DNA of 64,000 nucleotides, from NCBI RefSeq assembly GCF_009914755.1, contig NC_060926.1, one strand, 5' to 3'. The number at the start of each line of letters is the position of its first letter. Within the stretch, counting starts at the first letter, position 1. Below, piece after piece: positions 2,560 through 41,186 of this stretch. The DNA comes from the human T2T-CHM13v2.0 reference genome, Homo sapiens. A program made the position numbers and the translations under genes. The notes under the pieces are model-generated. The model saw only the letters and a list, made by a program, of their open reading frames with translations, made no database searches and was not told the DNA's origin.

Positions 2560-4530
2560 GATTGAGACCAAAGCCTGTTTAAATTTCATGTCTGAGTTCC
2601 AGCCATGACAGAGTAATGAATACTGGACTAGACTTCCTGCCATCAACTACTATCGAACTGGAAAAAAACTGTTGGCAGTGGACAACAGCAAGTGCAAGAC
2701 GGCTCCCTGAGAGATAAGCCCCCCAATCACCTGGTTGTCTGCTTGGAGTCCATTTCCTGACCACATCACAGAGAGCTGGAGTCTGAGCAGACACAAGTCT
2801 CATTGAGCTAAGGAGGAGGTGGCTAGACTCTGCAGAGCAGGCCATTGGAGAGGAGAGAGCTGTGCAGAGCTGGGCACCAAGTCCATATGGGGGTCTCTCA
2901 TGAGTCTGTGGCCAAAGGCTGGGCTATATATGCATAGGGTGAGATCACTCAAGGCTTACCAGATAACAGCTGCTATGGGGTTGAGAACAAAACCAATATC
3001 CTGAGGTCTAGTGGTGCTAGAGAAGAGCTATCCTGGGAACAGTAGGGTTTAGCCTTGTCAGAGTGGAGATATTGCCTTAACCCCTCATTAATTGCCCCAC
3101 CATCTACTGAGGCACCACAGAAAGGCTGTGCCCTAAAAATTATAGACTCATCCTAACAAAACCTAAAACCAAGAGCTGACAAGATCTGCAAAAGAGACAG
3201 AATTTGGAAGCTGAGTCCTGCCAAATTAGAAGGGCTTGGGAAACACTTTGAACTTCCTTCAAATCCTTGCTATTAGGGCAAAAAAACAAGCCAACACAAG
3301 TTCACTGTAATTTGCCAATAATTAAACTGCCTCCTGAGGAATCAAAAATCAACACTAAACATTCTTCAATCAAGAATCAATAGTCAGGCTGGGTGCGGTG
3401 GCTCATGCCTGTAATCCCAGCACTTTGGGAGGCCGAGGCGGGCGGATCACGAGATCACGAGATCGAGACCATCCTGGCTAACTCGGTGAAACCCTGTCTC
3501 TACTAAAAATACAAAAAATTAGCCGGGCATGGTGGCGGGCACCTGTAATCCAGCTACTCAGGAGGCTGAGGCAGGAGAATGGCATGAACCCGGGAGGCGG
3601 AGCTTGCCATGAGCCGAGATTGCGCCACTGCACTCCAGCCTGGGCAACAGAGCCAGACTCCGTCTCAAAAAAAGAAAAAAAAACCAACGGTCTTCTGAGG
3701 AAGATAAAAGAATCTAGAGTCTCTACAATGTGTTATCCACAAGGTCTGGTGTTCAATCAAAAACCACTACTCATACAAAGAAACATGTAAATGTGATCCA
3801 TAGTCAGGAAAAAAGGTAGTAAATAGAAACTGAACCCAAGATGGTTCAAATGTTGGACTTAGCAGATGAAGACTGTAAAACAGCTATTATAAATATTTCA
3901 AAGAGGTAAAGAAAAATACATTCAAAGAATTAAAGGAAAATATACTCTTAATGAGTGAGCAGAGAATCTAATAGAGAACTGAGAACTATACTGGGAACCA
4001 AATGCAAATTCTAGAGCTGAAAACTTCCCTCAGGGAGTTTAACAGTAGATTGTCAGTGGTGAAGTCAAATCAACAGAGACTATGCAATCTGAAAAATGCA
4101 TAAAAAAATGGAAGAAAAATAAATATAGCCTCAGGGACTCTGGGACAAAATCAAATGGTCTAATATACATGTAATTGGAGGCCAAGAAGGTAAAGAGAGC
4201 CAGAATGTGGCCAAAAAAACTCTGAAGAAATAATAGTAAAACAAAAACAAAACAGAAAACTCCCCAAATTTGATGAAAAACACCCACCTACCAATCTTAG
4301 AAACTCAGTAAATCCTAAATAGAATAAAAATGAAGAGAATCACATCTTGGCACATCATATTCTAACTGCTGAAAACCAAAGAAAAGAGAAACTCTTGAAA
4401 GCAGCCAGGGGGTAAAAAGGGCACATTAGGTACAGAGATTAATAAGAGTCAGAATGAGTGCTAACATCTCATGACACACAATGGAGGCCAGAAGAGAATG
4501 GACCAGCATCTTTAAAGTGTTGAAAAAAAT
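2560..4530 (+). mobile_element. Old L1M 5' region / ORF1 fragment, split by an AluY
   Basis: ORF1-like blocks: aaccaaatgcaaattctagagctgaaaa, ccccaaatttgatgaaaaa, ctcttgaaagcagccag, atggaggccagaaga; left boundary approximate. Confidence 0.75.
3387..3683 (+). mobile_element. AluY
   Basis: gatcgagaccatcctggctaac and ggcggagcttgc diagnostic positions. Confidence 0.9.
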
Positions 4531-34815: not shown

Positions 34816-35898
34816 ATGGGTGTGTATGTACATGCGTATAAACACATACATAAATTCAAGTTAGCATAGCCCCTACACCAATTAGTAATACCATCAGAGC
34901 TGAGAAGAAGACGATCACCATGAGTATGAGATCCGGGAAGAAACTTAACATGGACCTTGAGGGAAGGATAAGATATGGAAAGAATGATGAATAATGGAAC
35001 AGAAAGTTGCAAAAGGGAAATAGTGGGAAATGAGGTTGAAAGTTGTTTACCCGGGAAAGCCTTCTCTGACACTTGTTTTGTATTCACGCACCCCAAGTTT
35101 GGCTCTGCCTCGGGCTTCTACAAACCCCCATGAAGTGACTCTATGACAACACTTGTCACCCTGAACTGTAATTGTTAATCTAATTGGCTGTCTTCCCCAC
35201 CAGGCAACAAGTTCACTGAGGGCAATAACTGTCTCTCTGGTTCACTTATATTCCCAACACTTAGGACAAAGCTTGGTACAGAATGGAAACTTAGCTAGCA
35301 TTTGTTGAAGAAACAGATGGCTGAAAGCCAGGTCTTCTGATACAGCAGTGCATTGTCAGGCTAAGGAGTGCAACTCGTTCTGGCCAGCACATGTGACTGT
35401 CAGTTCTTTGGCAACTGACAGACATTTTGGAGAGTTGATTAACATGCACAAAACATCATTTAAAAATACTAATTTGGGAGTGGTATCAAGAATAGACAGA
35501 AGTAGGCTAGGTGAGGTGGCTCACATCTGTAATCCCAGCATTTTTAGAAGGCCAAGGCAGGATCGCTTGAGACTAGGAGTTCAGGACCAGCTTGGGCAAT
35601 ATAGAGAGACCGTGTCTCTTAAAAAAATAAAAATTAAAAAAAGGCCAGGTGTGGTGGCACACACCTGTAGTCCTGGAACTTTGGGAGTCTGAGGCAGGAG
35701 GATCACTTGAGCCCAGGAATTCAAGACCAGCTTGGGCAACACAGGGAGACCCCATCTCTACAAAAAATAAAAAAATTAGCCCAGGCATGATGGCTCACAC
35801 CTGTAATCCCAGCACTTTGGAATACTGAGGTGGGTGGATCACTTGAAGTCAGGAGTTTGAGACTGGCTTGGCCCAAATGGCAAAACCCTGTCTGTACC

Positions 35899-35929
<31 letters not shown>

Positions 35930-35998
35930 GCCAGGCATGGTGGTGCACAGAACAAGTCACCCTATCCACTTGTGCATGCCTGTAATCCCAGGCACTCA

Positions 35999-36229
<231 letters not shown>

Positions 36230-36615
36230 TCAACACTACTGCACTCCACCCTGGCTGCCAGAGTGAGACCTGGTCTTAAAAAAAAAAAAAAGAGAGAGAA
36301 AAGAAAAGAAGGTTATGTAGGTTATGGTTAGCCATCAGAAGCCCAGTAGTTCCTAGGCATCTGGCAATAAATACCTACATGACAATGGCAATGGGAATGG
36401 ACAGCAAGGAAGAGATGAAAAAACTACAATAGGAACAGCTTCTTGGTGACTGCTAGGTGTGGGGCAAACCGAGAAAGTGGAGTGAAGGCTGACCCCACGT
36501 TCTGGAGCCCGAGTGGCTGAGATGATGACAGTTACTCTGACAGAAATGAGACCCCAAAGGAGAGCTATTTAAACAGTGACAAGATCTGTTTTGAACACGC
36601 TGTAGTTTTGGATGT

Positions 36616-36774
36616 TGATATGGTTTGGCTGTGTCCCCATCCAAATCTTATCTTGAATTGTAAACCCCATAATCCTCATGTGTTGTGGGAGGGATTTGGT
36701 AGGAGGTAATTGAATCATGGGGGCGGTTTTCCCCATGTTGTTCTCGTGATAGTGAGTGAGTTTTCACAAGATCT
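36616..36774 (+). mobile_element. THE1C/D-type MaLR 5' LTR, truncated after ~160 bp
   Basis: TGATATGGTTTGGCTGTGTCCCC start; colinear with the 3' LTR at 40462 up to AGATCT. Confidence 0.9.
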
Positions 36775-39430
36775 TAATCATTTTCCCCTTCCACAAGATA
36801 TCACACTGGTCCATTACATTGATGACATTGTGCTGATTGGATCCAGTGAGCAAGAAGTAGCAAGCACGCTGGACTTACTGGTGAGACATTTGTGTGCCAG
36901 GGGATGGGAAATAAATCTAAAATCTAAAATCCCTGACTAAAAATCAGGGACCTTCCACCTCAGTAAAATTTCTAGGAGTCCAGTGCTGTGGGGCCTGTGG
37001 AGTATTAGATATTCCTTCTAAGGTGAGGGATAAGTTGCTGCATTTGGCCCCTCCTACAACCAAGAAAGAGGCACAGTGCCTAGTGGGCCTATTTGGATTT
37101 TGGAGGCAACACATTCCTCATTTAGGGGTGTTACTCCTGCCCATTTATTGAGTGACCTGAAAGGCTGCCAGTTTTGAGTGGGGTCCAGAAAGGAGAAGGC
37201 TCTGCAGTAGGTCCAGGCTGCTATGCAAGCTGCTCTGCCACTTGGGCCATATGACCCAGTGGATCCAATGGTGCTTGAGGTGTCAGTGGCAGATAAGGAT
37301 GCTGTTTGGAGTCTTTGGCAGGCCTGCATCGGTGAATTACAGTGGAGGCCTCTAGGATTTTGGAGCAAGGCTCTGCCATCTTCTGCAGATAAATACTCTC
37401 CTTTTGAGAGACGGCTCTTGGCCTGTTACTGGTCTTTGGTGGAAACTGAACATTTGACTATGGATCATCAAGTCACCATGCAACCTGAACTGCCTATCAT
37501 AAACTGGGTGCTTTCTGACCCATCTAGCCATAAAGTGGGTTATGCACAGCAGCATTCCATCATCAAATGGAAGTGGTATATATGGGATCAGGCTCAAGCA
37601 GGTCCTGAAGGTGCAAGTAAGTTACATGAGGAAGTGGTTCAAATGCCCATGGTCTCCACTCCTGCCACCCTGCCTTCTCTCCCCAAGCCTTCACTGATGG
37701 CCTCATAGAGAGTTACCTATGATCAGAGGAAGAGAAGACTAGGGCCTGGTTTCTAGATGATTCTTCATGATATGCAGGAACTACCCGAAAGTGGACAGCT
37801 GCAGCACTACAGCCTCTTTCTAGGACATCCCTGAAGGACAGTGGCAAAGGGAAATCTTCCAAGTGGGCAGAACTTCAAGCAGAGCACCTGGTTGTGCACT
37901 TTGCTTGGAAGGAGAAATGATCATGAGCTGTAGCCAATGGTTTGGCTGGATGGTCAGGGACTTGGAAGAAGCATGATTGGAAAATTGGTGACAAAGAAAT
38001 TTGGGGAAGAGGTATGTAGGTGGACCTCTCTTGAGTGGTCAAAAACTGTGAAGATATTTGTATCCCATGTGAGTGCTCATCAGAGTGTGAGGAGGATTTT
38101 AATAATCAAGTGGATAGGATGACTTGTTCTGTGGATACCACTCAGTCTCTTTCCCCACCCTCCCCTGTCATCACCCAATGGGCTCATGAACAAAGTGGCT
38201 ATGGTGGCAGAGACGGAGGTTTTGCATGCGTTCAGCAACATGGACTTCCACTCACCAAGGCTGCCCTTTCTATGGTCACTGCTGAGTGCCCAATTTGCCA
38301 GCAGCAAAGACCAATGCTGGGCCCTTGATATAGCATCATTCCTTGGGGTGATCAGCCACCTACTTGGTGGCAGGTTTATTATATTGGACCTTTCCATCAT
38401 GGAAATATGATTGTCCTCACTGGAATAGCCACTTACTCTGAATATGGTTTTGCCTATCCTGCCTGCAATGCTTCTGCCTAGAAGAATTGCATAGTAGACT
38501 GCATATGGAATTGCAGTCCATAGAAACATCTATGGACTCATGGAATGCCTTATCCACTGTCTTGGTATTCCACACAGCACTGCCTCTGATCAAGGCACTT
38601 TGTGACTAAAGAAGTGCAGCAGTGGGCTCATGCTAATGGAATTTGGTGGTCTTACCATGTTCACCATCATCCTGAAGCAACTGGATTAATAGAACAGTGG
38701 CGTAGCCTTTTGAAGTCACAATTACAATGGCAACTAGGTGACAGTACTTTGCAGGGCTGGGTCAAAGTTCTCCGGAAGGTTGTATATGCCCTGAATTAGC
38801 TTCCAAAATGTGGTACTATTTCTCCCATAGCCAGGATTCATGGGTCCAGGAATCAAGGGGTGGAAGTGGAAGTGGTACCACTCACCATCACCCCTAGTGA
38901 CCCACTAGCAAAATTTTTGCTTCCTGTTGCAGTTACATTACGTTCTGCTGGCCTAGAGGTCTTAGTTCCAGAGGGAGGAATGCTGCCACCAGGAGACACA
39001 CAATGGTTCCATTAAAGTGGAAGTTAAGACTGCCACTTGGCCACTTTGGGCTCCTCCTACTTCTAAGTCAACAGGCTAAGAAAGGAGTTACAGTGCTGGC
39101 TAAGATGATTTACCCAAACTATCAAGATGAAATCAGTCTGCTACTCCACAATGGAGGTAAGGAAGAGTATGCATGGAATACAGGACATTCCTTAGGGTGT
39201 CTCTTAGTATTACCATGCCCTATGATTAGGGTCAATCAGAAACTACAACAACCCAATCCAGGCAGGACTACGAATGGCCCAGACCCTTCAGGAATGAAAG
39301 TTTGAGTCACTACACCAGGTAAAAACCATGACCCCCTGAGGTGCTTGCTGAAGGCAAAGGTAATAGAGAAGGGGTAGTAGAAGAAGGTAGTCATCAATAC
39401 CAGCTATGCCCACATGACCAGTTGCAGTAA
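36769..39430 (+). mobile_element. HERV-L pol fragment: RT C-terminus, RNase H, integrase, dUTPase (degraded)
   Basis: LVHYIDD at 36815-36826; RPLGFWSKALPSSADKYSPFERRLLACYW; integrase zinc finger WAHEQSG...CPICQQ; dUTPase-like ORF 39003..39305 downstream of integrase, an ERV-L hallmark. Confidence 0.92.
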
Positions 39431-40461
39431 TGAGAAGCCAAATGTTAATCACCAAGATGGTGGAGAAAATGTCTCCAGGACATGTCAGAGGTCCTAATGG
39501 CCGCTCCTCCCATCACAGATCTGAAGGCTTAGGAGGGAAAAAATGGTTTTGTGGGCCAGGTCTGGGGCTTTGCTGCTTTGTGCAGTCTCCAGACTTGGTG
39601 CCCTGTGTCCTAGCCATGGACAAAAGGGGCCAATGTACAGCTCAGGCCATTGGTTTAGAGGGTGCAATCCCCAAGCCTTGGTGGCTTCCACATGGTGTTA
39701 GGCCTGCGGGTGCACAGAAGTCAAGAATTGAGGTTTGGGAATCTACACCTAGATTTCAGAGGATGTATGGAAATGCCTGGATATCCAGGTAGGAGTTTGC
39801 TGCAAGGATGGAGCCCTCATGGAGAACCTCTGCTAGGGCAGTGCAGAAGGGAAATCTGGGGTTGAAGACCCCACACCGAGTCCCCACCGGGGCATTGCCT
39901 AGTGGAGCTGTGAGAAGAGGGCCACTGTCCTCCAGACCCCAGAATGGTAGATCCACCGACGGCTTGCACCATGCACCTGGAAAAGCTGCAGACACTCAGT
40001 GCTAGCCTGTGAAAGCAGCTGGAAGGGGCGCTGCACCCTGCAAAGCCACAGTGGTGGAGCTTCCCAAGGCCATGAGAGCCCACCTCTTGCATCAGCTTGA
40101 CTTGGATGTGAGACATGGAGTCATAGGAGATCATTTTGGAACTTTAAGGTTTAATGACTGCTGTTATTGGTTTGTGGACTTGCATGGGGCCTGTAGCCCC
40201 TTTGTTTTGGCCAATTTCTCCCATTTGGAATGGGTGTATTTACCCAGTGCCTGTACCCCCATTGTATCTAGGAAGTAACTAGCTTGTTTTTGATTTTACA
40301 GGCTCATTGGCAAAAGGGACTTGCCTTGTCTCAAATGAGACTTTGGACTTGGACTTTTGGGTGTATGCTGGAATGAGTTAAGACTTTTGGGGACTGTTGG
40401 GAAGGCATGATTATGTTTTGAAATGTGAGGACATGAGATTTGGGAGGGGGCAGGAGTAGGA
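39428..40461 (+). mobile_element. THE1 internal region, 3' part, with polypurine tract
   Basis: THE1-int motifs (TCAAGAATTGAGGTTTGGGA, GGATGTATGGAAATGCCTGG, AGTGGAGCTGTGAGAAGAGGGCCA); PPT TTTGGGAGGGGGCAGGAGTAGGA immediately before the LTR. Confidence 0.9.
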
Positions 40462-40802
40462 TGGTATGGTTTGGCTGTGTCCCCACCCAAATCTCATCTT
40501 GAATTTTAATCTCCATAATCCCCACGTGTCATGAGAGGGACCTGGTGGGATATAATTGAATCATGGGGGTGGTTTCCCCCATGCTGTTCTCATGATAGTG
40601 AGTAAGTTCTCACAAGATCTGATAGTTTTATAAGTGTCTGGCATTTCCCCTGCTGGCACTCATTCTCTCTTCTGCCACCCTGTGAAGAGGTGCCTTCTAC
40701 CATGATTGTAAGCTTCCTGAGGCCTCCCCAGCCATGGGGAACTGTGAGTCAGTTAAACCTCTTTTCTTTCTAAATTACCCAGTCAAAATTATTTCTTCAT
40801 AG
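40462..40802 (+). mobile_element. THE1C/D-type 3' LTR lacking its last ~20 bp
   Basis: TGGTATGGTTTGGCTGTGTCC...CATGATTGTAAGCTTCCTGAGGCCTCCCCAGCC...TTCTTCATAG. Confidence 0.9.
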
Positions 40803-41186
40803 TGATAGTGACAGGAGGCAGACAAATGCCTAAGCAGATAGGGGTGGGTCCCTGGTGAAACCCAACCTTCAAGCTGAAGACAGTCCCAGGTAAATTCTCA
40901 GACCAGATCAAAAACCTGTCTTCCCATTTGGTGCACTTTCCTCTGATGGATCCCACCCTTCACCTATTTTACGTATACCTACCCTTCCCTAATTGTTTTT
41001 TTTACACTGTCGTGCCCATCTTTGAGTGGTACATTTTAGAGTAACCCTGCTTATTCCTGCGAACCAACCAGCAATCTCCAGCTGCAGTTCAGAAGAAACA
41101 AAAGGGCTGGGTAATGTAAAAATCTGGATCAATATTCTAGTTCTGGGCAATTATTCTGCAAATCCTGCCAGGTGATAGGAGTAAAT
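40803..41186 (+). mobile_element. MER4-group (ERV1) LTR fragment (LTR29/MER48-like) plus a short internal fragment
   Basis: TGATAGTGACAGGAGGCAGACAAATGCC...GGGTCCCTGGTGAAACCCAACCTTCAAG; then aaaaatctggatcaatattctagttctgggc; subfamily uncertain. Confidence 0.6.

What the first reader, a model, noticed from the sequence alone, without database searches (positions are those of the whole stretch)
36616..40802. Chimeric THE1 (MaLR) / HERV-L provirus joined at microhomologies
Seen: order is 160 bp of THE1 LTR, 2.65 kb of ERV-L pol (YIDD RT, RNase H, integrase, dUTPase), THE1-int 3' part, PPT, THE1 LTR. All parts are co-oriented, with no MLT2 LTR and no TSD around the pol block. The left switch is at AGATCT (36769-36774), where the intact 3' LTR continues AGATCT-GATAG; the right switch is at GCAG-TAATGAGAAG (~39427-39437). 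From recalled consensus sequences, both parents share these short motifs. Known: MaLRs lack pol and are thought to use ERV-L enzymes. Inference: this is a reverse-transcription template-switch product of co-packaged THE1 and HERV-L RNAs, with a premature plus-strand jump explaining the short 5' LTR, and so is physical evidence of the helper/parasite relationship.
Basis: partly seen in the sequence, partly recalled or inferred. Interest (0 to 1): 0.7.

Follow-up and report, generated by a model that had tools for sequence, protein, structure and literature searches.

The report
Recurrent THE1/HERV-L hybrid retroelement fossils
This is an old, broken hybrid of two human retroviral repeats, an enzyme-less THE1 element and the enzyme-bearing HERV-L, and a second hybrid on chromosome X is joined at the very same base, which likely means the two RNAs were copied inside the same particles, as has long been assumed for this parasite and its helper.

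Summary
The anatomy is real: 159 bp of THE1 LTR (36616-36774), 2.65 kb of 5'-truncated HERV-L pol, THE1-int, PPT and a THE1 LTR that lacks its last ~23 bp. All parts are co-oriented, there is no MLT2 LTR, and both junctions lie in motifs shared by the parent families.

New here: a second, unlinked locus (chrX ~14.78 Mb) has the same left junction to the base, a different microhomology right junction and a 4/5 target-site duplication. Its LTRs fall in another THE1 clade, and the two pol pieces share no informative variants. The two loci therefore look like independent events at a hot spot, not one replicating lineage. THE1 and HERV-L share ~15 nt of primer-binding site, and a chr10 locus joins a HERV-L LTR to THE1-int at that site.

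Best reading (0.65): template switch plus premature plus-strand transfer in particles holding both RNAs. Rivals are break repair with captured HERV-L cDNA (0.15), a shared master (0.12) and nested insertion plus deletions (0.05). Homology alone does not explain the hot spot, and orthologues could not be checked. Non-coding fossils; nine literature searches found no description.

The parts
36611..36615 (+). 5 bases left of the element (expected left copy of the target-site duplication; right copy lost)
   Evidence: sequence; right end of the 3' LTR and its flank not found
36616..36774 (+). 5' 159 bp of a THE1 LTR, starting at the LTR's first base and ending about 8 bases before the TATA-like TTTATAA seen in full copies; likely U3 only
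   Evidence: 86% to 40462-40620; 86-89% to other LTR copies; continuation in full copies
36742..36771 (.). 8-bp inverted repeat (arms 36742-36749 and 36764-36771) ending 3 bases before the crossover; candidate pause or release site
   Evidence: 6 or more of 8 bases complementary in 35 of 42 LTR copies, but not the most stable hairpin in the LTR
36769..36774 (+). left junction, shared hexamer AGATCT; same base as in the chrX hybrid
36775..39427 (+). HERV-L pol, 5'-truncated inside RT, with many stops and frame changes: RT (YIDD 36815-36826), RNase H-like region, integrase, dUTPase, end of pol
39426..39436 (+). right junction, 11-base imperfect homology (10 of 11), THE1 letter kept at the mismatch
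39426..40461 (+). 3' part of THE1 internal region
   Evidence: 78-84% to other THE1 internal copies
40442..40461 (+). polypurine tract
   Evidence: sequence directly before the LTR
40462..40802 (+). 3' THE1 LTR lacking its last ~23 bases
40803..41170 (.). unrelated repeat that replaces the LTR end; not part of the hybrid, limits approximate
   Evidence: sequence; no similarity to the THE1 or HERV-L loci held; family not tested

Best explanation
The element is a THE1/HERV-L hybrid that was likely made by reverse transcriptase in a particle holding one THE1 RNA and one HERV-L RNA, and the same left jump likely happened independently at least twice. Shown: the order of parts, the shared motifs at the two window junctions and the chrX right junction, the second locus with its 4/5 target-site duplication, the different THE1 clades, and the shared primer-binding motif. 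Inferred steps: (1) minus-strand synthesis starts on THE1 RNA and copies the 3' LTR, PPT and about 1 kb of THE1-int; (2) it switches to HERV-L RNA at a short homology (different in the two loci) and runs up pol; (3) the plus strand primed at the THE1 PPT copies U3 and transfers early, at base 159, to the matching hexamer in the HERV-L minus strand; (4) the linear product has two normal LTR ends and is integrated by ERV-L integrase. The product has no primer-binding site and probably no transcription start, so it would be dead on arrival. Why base 159 recurs is not explained; a pause or release at the adjacent inverted repeat is a guess.
For: The second locus, chrX 14,780.7-14,782.7 kb, has the same left junction, no flank similarity, both LTR ends and a 4/5 TSD. 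Its two LTR parts share 2 rare variants and a subtype mark. The 3' LTRs sit in separate supported clades (95/89 and 100/98; together in 0% of 200 bootstrap trees), and the THE1-int parts do not group either (0%, unresolved tree). The pol pieces share no non-CpG minority state, and their distance fits a star expectation (0.067 vs 0.069). At both right junctions the imperfect homology lies 3' of the crossover; at the left junction it lies mainly 5'. THE1 letters are kept in each, as a THE1-derived nascent strand predicts. An exact pattern for HERV-L sequence with foreign DNA at this acceptor gave 3 matches: the two hybrids and one that looks like chance. THE1 and HERV-L share about 15 nt after the 5' LTR, and a chr10 locus joins a HERV-L LTR to a whole THE1-int and THE1 LTR there. 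Premature second-strand transfer is documented for HIV-1: 20 of 23 large deletions from 5' PCRs (PMC12657518). Both families amplified in simians and are active in early embryos (PMC11359688).
Against: Homology does not single out the site. It is beaten by 44-198 of 3,000-3,700 peaks in 3 kb of HERV-L, and ranks 1st, 3rd, 6th or below 6th of 172-192 acceptors for that LTR position, depending on scoring. No other LTR cut at base 159 and joined to an internal region was seen in 100 of 169 listed rows, which were swamped by a related LTR family. The window copy has no readable TSD and shares no rare variant between its two LTR parts (also true of 2 of 7 ordinary THE1 pairs). The two pol pieces are each other's best match (91.2%) and group weakly (92/73). 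No THE1 LTR followed by a HERV-L start was found (0 matches). Junction polarity is the same under break repair. n is only 2.
Confidence: 0.65

Rival explanations
1. Break repair with captured cDNA. A complete THE1 was already integrated, a double-strand break removed about 750-900 bp of it, and both ends primed on a HERV-L cDNA through microhomologies.
For: In mouse zygotes, induced breaks capture 5'- and 3'-truncated MuERV-L pol pieces with microhomologies and no LTR (PMC4516963 passages), and two embryos captured near-identical MERVL pieces (PMC6857330 passages). It predicts the same junction polarity, a TSD at the THE1 ends and matching LTR parts. The replaced THE1 stretch would be 742-792 bp for the window.
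Against: It needs two breaks in different THE1 copies to be resected to the same base and to use the same HERV-L base. Both clear captures at this acceptor are in THE1 U3 and co-oriented, and none is clearly in other DNA (the pattern matches only 9 of 26 fetched copies).
Confidence: 0.15
2. Shared master. One hybrid junction arose once, was transcribed from an outside promoter and recombined again with THE1 RNAs of another subtype; the U3 fragment served as the landing site for the plus strand.
For: It explains the identical left junction without a hot spot. The pol pieces are mutual best hits and group at 92/73, and the site is not outstanding in homology.
Against: No shared non-CpG minority states and a star-like distance. 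Each 5' fragment carries its own locus's subtype mark about 12 bases from the junction. The right junctions differ and each uses a microhomology, although two hybrids would share about 1 kb of long homology. The hybrid lacks the primer-binding site. Only two loci were found.
Confidence: 0.12
3. Nested insertion plus deletions. A full HERV-L landed co-oriented inside THE1-int, and two later microhomology-mediated deletions removed both MLT2 LTRs, gag, pro and the adjoining THE1 parts.
For: Nesting of the two families occurs (a THE1 LTR inside HERV-L pol, L052), and internal deletions are common in HERV-L copies.
Against: It needs two nested insertions and four deletions, two of them with the same breakpoints. 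No trace of MLT2 LTR, 3' UTR or upstream HERV-L remains near the window element, and the chrX element is continuous hybrid sequence from LTR to LTR.
Confidence: 0.05

Closest known systems
THE1 (ERVL-MaLR) non-autonomous LTR retroelements
   Same: LTR, 3' internal region, PPT and 5-bp TSD (chrX copy); LTR-pair divergence in the range of ordinary copies (K2P 0.16 and 0.14 vs 0.12-0.22)
   Different: carries pol, which MaLRs lack (PMC11359688); 5' LTR cut at base 159; no primer-binding site or 5' internal region
HERV-L (ERV3; MLT2 LTRs)
   Same: pol with YIDD RT, RNase H-like region, integrase and C-terminal dUTPase; falls inside the main star-like cluster of fetched HERV-L copies
   Different: no MLT2 LTR, gag, pro, 5' RT or 3' UTR; flanked by THE1 parts
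HARLEQUIN and other inter-family HERV recombinants
   Same: mosaic provirus ascribed to co-packaging and polymerase jumps (PMC4724089; PMC5753468)
   Different: those spread as families with two full LTRs; here single-copy products between an autonomous ERV3 and its non-autonomous MaLR, with a recurrent breakpoint
Premature second-strand transfer in defective HIV-1 proviruses
   Same: deletion starting upstream of the primer-binding site and leaving an incomplete 5' LTR (PMC12657518)
   Different: there within one virus; here the acceptor belongs to another family and a second, heterologous switch is needed
RT-product-mediated double-strand-break repair in mouse zygotes
   Same: truncated ERV-L pol piece, no LTR, microhomology at both ends (PMC4516963)
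   Different: there the target is any induced break; here both targets are the same base of THE1 U3 in the same orientation

Membership tests
THE1 (MaLR) | two LTRs of about 350 bp starting TG and ending CA | tested here: not met
   5' LTR is 159 bp in both hybrids; window 3' LTR lacks ~23 bases; chrX 3' LTR reaches the terminal CA, with a short deletion near its start
THE1 (MaLR) | no pol | tested here: not met
   RT, RNase H-like and dUTPase hits
THE1 (MaLR) | internal region ending in a PPT, similar to multi-copy THE1 internal sequence | tested here: met
   39426-40461 matches other copies at 78-84%
THE1 (MaLR) | assignment to a named Dfam/Repbase subfamily | not testable with these tools
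   no repeat library; clades inferred from 43 LTR copies only; names recalled
HERV-L | pol with dUTPase at its C-terminal end | tested here: met
   matches HERVL peptides in the PMC4724089 supplement
HERV-L | MLT2 LTRs, primer-binding site, gag and pro | tested here: not met
   none found near the element
Integrase-made provirus | 5-bp target-site duplication around the whole element | tested here: inconclusive
   chrX copy 4 of 5; window copy has lost its right end
Premature second-strand-transfer product | left end at the first LTR base, breakpoint upstream of the primer-binding site, short homology at the join | tested here: met
   both loci; the structure is necessary but not sufficient
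Replicating recombinant family (HARLEQUIN-like) | several copies sharing all junctions and descending from one source | tested here: not met
   right junctions each unique among 40 scored matches; LTR clades differ; no shared informative pol variants
L1-made processed copy | poly(A) tail, long TSD, loss of U3 at the 5' end and of U5 at the 3' end | tested here: not met
   elements start at the first LTR base, and the chrX copy ends at the last one with no tail
Break-repair capture of cDNA | an intact pre-capture THE1 allele in related species | not testable with these tools
   no primate genomes held

The most novel reading that the evidence does not exclude
THE1 and HERV-L RNAs were packaged together, used the same primer-binding site and recombined repeatedly. 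The human genome holds a small, undescribed class of MaLR/ERV-L hybrids (chr2, chrX, chr10, possibly chr1 and chr6) whose breakpoints map the strand-transfer steps of an extinct ERV-L reverse transcriptase, including a hot spot for premature plus-strand transfer at base 159 of THE1 U3. This would be direct fossil evidence for the assumed helper-parasite relation.
Probability: 0.6. Interest if true: 0.65.

Novelty: new variant of a known kind. Interest (0 to 1): 0.52.

Why it matters
MaLRs are the most abundant LTR repeats in the human genome (about 386,000 copies, PMC11319637). They encode no pol. Their use of ERV-L enzymes is stated as a suggestion in PMC4516963 and, citing earlier work, as fact in PMC11319637. 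Hybrids made during reverse transcription would show that the two RNAs shared particles, and the shared primer-binding motif suggests how one enzyme set served both. A base-exact recurrent breakpoint makes the idea testable by a genome-wide census in primates and by sequencing cDNA in mouse embryos, where both groups are still expressed. The elements themselves are non-coding fossils; no function is suggested for the window copy, which lies in an intron of DNAJC27-AS1.

Tried and rejected
(1) My idea that mismatched primer-binding sites force the premature jump was rejected: the two families share about 15 nt there.
(2) Segmental duplication of the two loci was rejected: no flank similarity.
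(3) An L1-made processed copy was rejected: LTR ends present, no tail.
(4) The idea that the junction is the best homology between LTR and pol was rejected.
(5) A strong hairpin at the HERV-L acceptor was not seen; the region is among the least folded.
(6) The search for other LTRs cut at base 159 was uninformative: 100 of 169 rows seen, mostly a related LTR family.
(7) More copies of the window, chrX and chr1 junctions: none among the 40 scored matches of each search.
(8) THE1 LTR followed by a HERV-L start: 0 matches. HERV-L LTR followed by a MaLR-type start with a stricter pattern: 1 match, not evidently MaLR.
(9) Four stretches fetched to read the HERV-L primer site missed it.
(10) L098 looked like a hybrid, but on reading it appears to be an older MaLR with its own LTR (family recalled).
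(11) Pfam did not detect integrase or the second RNase H region.
(12) Smit 1993 was not held.
(13) The catalogue of PMC4724089 gave no row at the estimated hg19 position (position estimated from a recalled gene coordinate) and no row described as HERVL with THE; only part of its 145 THE1 mentions was seen.
Full report
1. Observation. The window holds, all on the + strand, 159 bp of a THE1 LTR starting at its first base (36616-36774), HERV-L pol (36775-39427), the 3' part of the THE1 internal region with its polypurine tract (39426-40461) and a THE1 LTR (40462-40802). Pfam finds RT (E 5e-6, matching only profile positions 130-186 of 205, so RT is cut at its N end), an RNase H-like domain and dUTPase. 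Integrase shows only as weak PDB hits (E 0.05-0.6; no Pfam hit). The frames carry many stops. HERV-L identity is supported by HERVL pol-dUTPase peptides in a supplement of PMC4724089. The labels THE1 and MLT2 are recalled, since no repeat library was available. Blast with individual copies found no MLT2 LTR or HERV-L 3' UTR near the element, no upstream HERV-L part and no THE1-int 5' part. The 3' LTR lacks about 23 terminal bases, and neither they nor a matching flank were found downstream, so the window copy has no readable target-site duplication.

2. Junctions. Left: AGATCT lies at the homologous place in 17 of 28 THE1 LTR copies and 12 of 26 HERV-L copies (27 of 28 and 25 of 26 within one mismatch; two duplicate loci were dropped before the HERV-L count). 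Random joins between copies give 6 or more shared bases with P=0.0019 and 7 or more with P=0.0006. Right: an 11-base block with one mismatch between the parents, in 16 of 21 HERV-L and 14 of 17 THE1-int copies; the hybrid keeps the THE1 letter at the mismatch. A second shared 9-10-mer lies 13 bases upstream in THE1-int (8 of 17 copies), so a crossover there followed by a small deletion is an alternative reading of this junction. The fetched copies were the best matches to junction queries and are biased towards similarity.

3. A second locus. A search with 36616-36900 returned one other place matching across the junction, chrX 14,782,447-14,782,732 (85%; 40 of 6,410 candidates scored). A 100-base junction query (40 of 1,194 scored) and three patterns gave the same two loci. 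One search listed 11 matches, of which only these two were exact; one search listed 2; one search listed 3, one of which looks like chance. The exact patterns miss diverged copies: the halves match 19 of 43 LTRs and 18 of 26 pol copies, and that matches 9 of 26. More copies may therefore exist. The chrX element is 1,992 bp: LTR 1-160, pol equal to window 36775-37342, THE1-int from about window 39520, and a 3' LTR that reaches the terminal CA. It is flanked by a 5-base duplication with one mismatch and shares no flank with chr2. Its right junction is a different microhomology, ATCACAG (13 of 23 HERV-L, 7 of 17 THE1 copies), followed by further imperfect homology in which THE1 letters are kept. 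Each right junction was unique among 40 scored matches.

4. One origin or two. The 3' LTRs fall in different supported clades of 43 LTR copies (95/89 and 100/98; together in 0% of 200 bootstrap trees). A one-base subtype mark about 12 bases before the junction is short in both chrX LTR parts and long in both chr2 parts. The chrX parts also share 2 rare variants; the chr2 parts share none, as do 2 of 7 ordinary THE1 pairs. The THE1-int tree is unresolved but never groups the two. Against independence, the pol pieces are mutual best hits (91.2%) and group at 92/73 among 25 rows (three short fragments were left out). However, all four shared minority states are in CpG-type columns, and the non-CpG distance (0.067) fits a star expectation (0.069; 39% of residuals as low). 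Independent events are more likely. LTR-pair divergence (K2P 0.159 and 0.141) is within the range of ordinary THE1 pairs (0.119-0.217, n=7). With a recalled rate of about 0.2% per million years this is roughly 35-40 million years, in line with simian amplification of both families (PMC11359688).

5. Mechanism. Inferred: minus-strand synthesis on THE1 RNA, a switch to HERV-L RNA at a short homology, then early transfer of the PPT-primed plus strand at LTR base 159, giving a linear DNA with two normal ends. The side on which the imperfect homology lies and the retention of THE1 letters fit this at the left junction and at both right junctions, but they fit repair primed from broken THE1 ends equally well. 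Premature second-strand transfer is documented for HIV-1 (PMC12657518). The recurrence is not explained by homology: the site is beaten by 44-198 of about 3,000-3,700 peaks in 3 kb of HERV-L, and ranks 1st, 3rd, 6th or below 6th among 172-192 acceptors for that LTR position under four scoring and clade settings. An 8-bp inverted repeat ends 3 bases before the crossover (6 or more of 8 complementary in 35 of 42 copies) but is not the strongest hairpin in the LTR, and the HERV-L acceptor is weakly folded. No general cluster of LTRs cut at this base was seen (100 of 169 rows).

6. Primer-binding site and further hybrids. I expected mismatched primer-binding sites to force the early jump. Instead, most of the 100 listed (of 145) HERV-L LTR ends are followed by a motif that THE1 copies share over about 15 bases. 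One row led to chr10:134.445-134.448 Mb. There, the end of HERV-L pol is followed by part of an MLT2 LTR, the HERV-L spacer and the shared site, a whole THE1-int and a THE1 LTR. Its left end was not read, so its origin is open. Weaker candidates are chr6:40.636 Mb (MLT2 LTR, primer site, about 20 MaLR-like bases) and chr1:238.451 Mb (160 bp THE1-int, HERV-L integrase to MLT2 LTR). The reverse type, a THE1 LTR followed by a HERV-L start, gave 0 matches.

7. Rivals. Break repair with captured ERV-L cDNA is real in mouse zygotes and leaves truncated pol pieces with microhomologies and no LTR (PMC4516963; PMC6857330), but it gives no reason for two base-identical captures in THE1 U3 (0.15). A shared master avoids the hot spot but conflicts with section 4 (0.12). 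Nesting plus deletions needs two insertions and four deletions (0.05). Orthologues could not be checked.

8. Literature. Nine full-text searches (listings and abstract starts only) showed no paper describing THE1/HERV-L recombinants; most subscription papers are outside this library. Seen: PMC5753468 passages; PMC4724089 passages and parts of two supplements, which note MaLR pieces in 92 class I/II chains and suspect artefacts; PMC11319637 parts 1-2 of 3; PMC12657518, PMC11359688, PMC4516963 and PMC6857330 passages. Smit 1993 was not available. Unseen rows of the PMC4724089 table, and hybrid-repeat lists behind PMC11319637, may include these loci.

9. Verdict. Recombinant ERVs and premature strand transfer are known kinds; a recurrent, base-exact hybrid between a MaLR and its presumed helper is a new variant. 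It has no apparent function, but it makes a long-standing assumption testable. Interest 0.52.

Noticed in passing
L091:6742-8733 minus (G000:C23:14,780,741-14,782,732): Second THE1/HERV-L hybrid with the same left junction, another right junction and a 4/5 target-site duplication.
   Followed up: yes
L099, L100, L101 (G000:C10:134,445,000-134,447,820, minus): End of HERV-L pol, part of an MLT2 LTR, the shared primer-binding site, a whole THE1-int and a THE1 LTR; about 350 bp shorter than expected between pol and LTR; right end lies in an older MaLR LTR; left end not read.
   Followed up: partly
L085:662-2428 (G000:C1:238.451 Mb): 160 bp of THE1-int joined directly to HERV-L integrase, which runs on to an MLT2 LTR; the join falls at a splice-acceptor-like AG; unique among 40 scored matches.
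   Followed up: partly
L097:1-445 (G000:C6:40.636 Mb): MLT2 LTR, HERV-L spacer and primer site followed by about 20 MaLR-internal-like bases, then unrelated DNA; possible truncated hybrid.
   Followed up: partly
genome-wide: THE1 and HERV-L share about 15 bases of primer-binding site, and both LTR families end in the same 9 bases.
   Followed up: partly
L052:940-1282 minus (G000:C18:51.43 Mb): A solo THE1 LTR inserted co-oriented inside HERV-L pol, so some THE1 insertions are younger than some HERV-L copies.
   Followed up: partly
G000:C8:115,277,457-115,277,504: HERV-L primer site interrupted by what looks like an antisense THE1-type LTR end (one row).
   Followed up: no
L033, L046, L049, L056, L058: HERV-L copies with internal deletions of about 0.15-1.9 kb, some with short shared bases at the joins.
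   Followed up: partly
L018, just after its THE1 LTR (G000:C14:54.817 Mb): A much more diverged ERV-L-like pol stretch follows the LTR co-oriented; probably the older target of the THE1 insertion.
   Followed up: no
window 40803-41170: An LTR-like repeat abuts the truncated THE1 LTR, with a 6-base tandem duplication at the join; family not identified.
   Followed up: no
window 35506-36300: Cluster of nested, co-oriented Alu elements about 300 bp upstream of the hybrid.
   Followed up: no
window 36710-36940: A stop-free frame of 76 codons runs across the left junction from LTR into RT; it has no ATG and probably no promoter, so likely chance.
   Followed up: no
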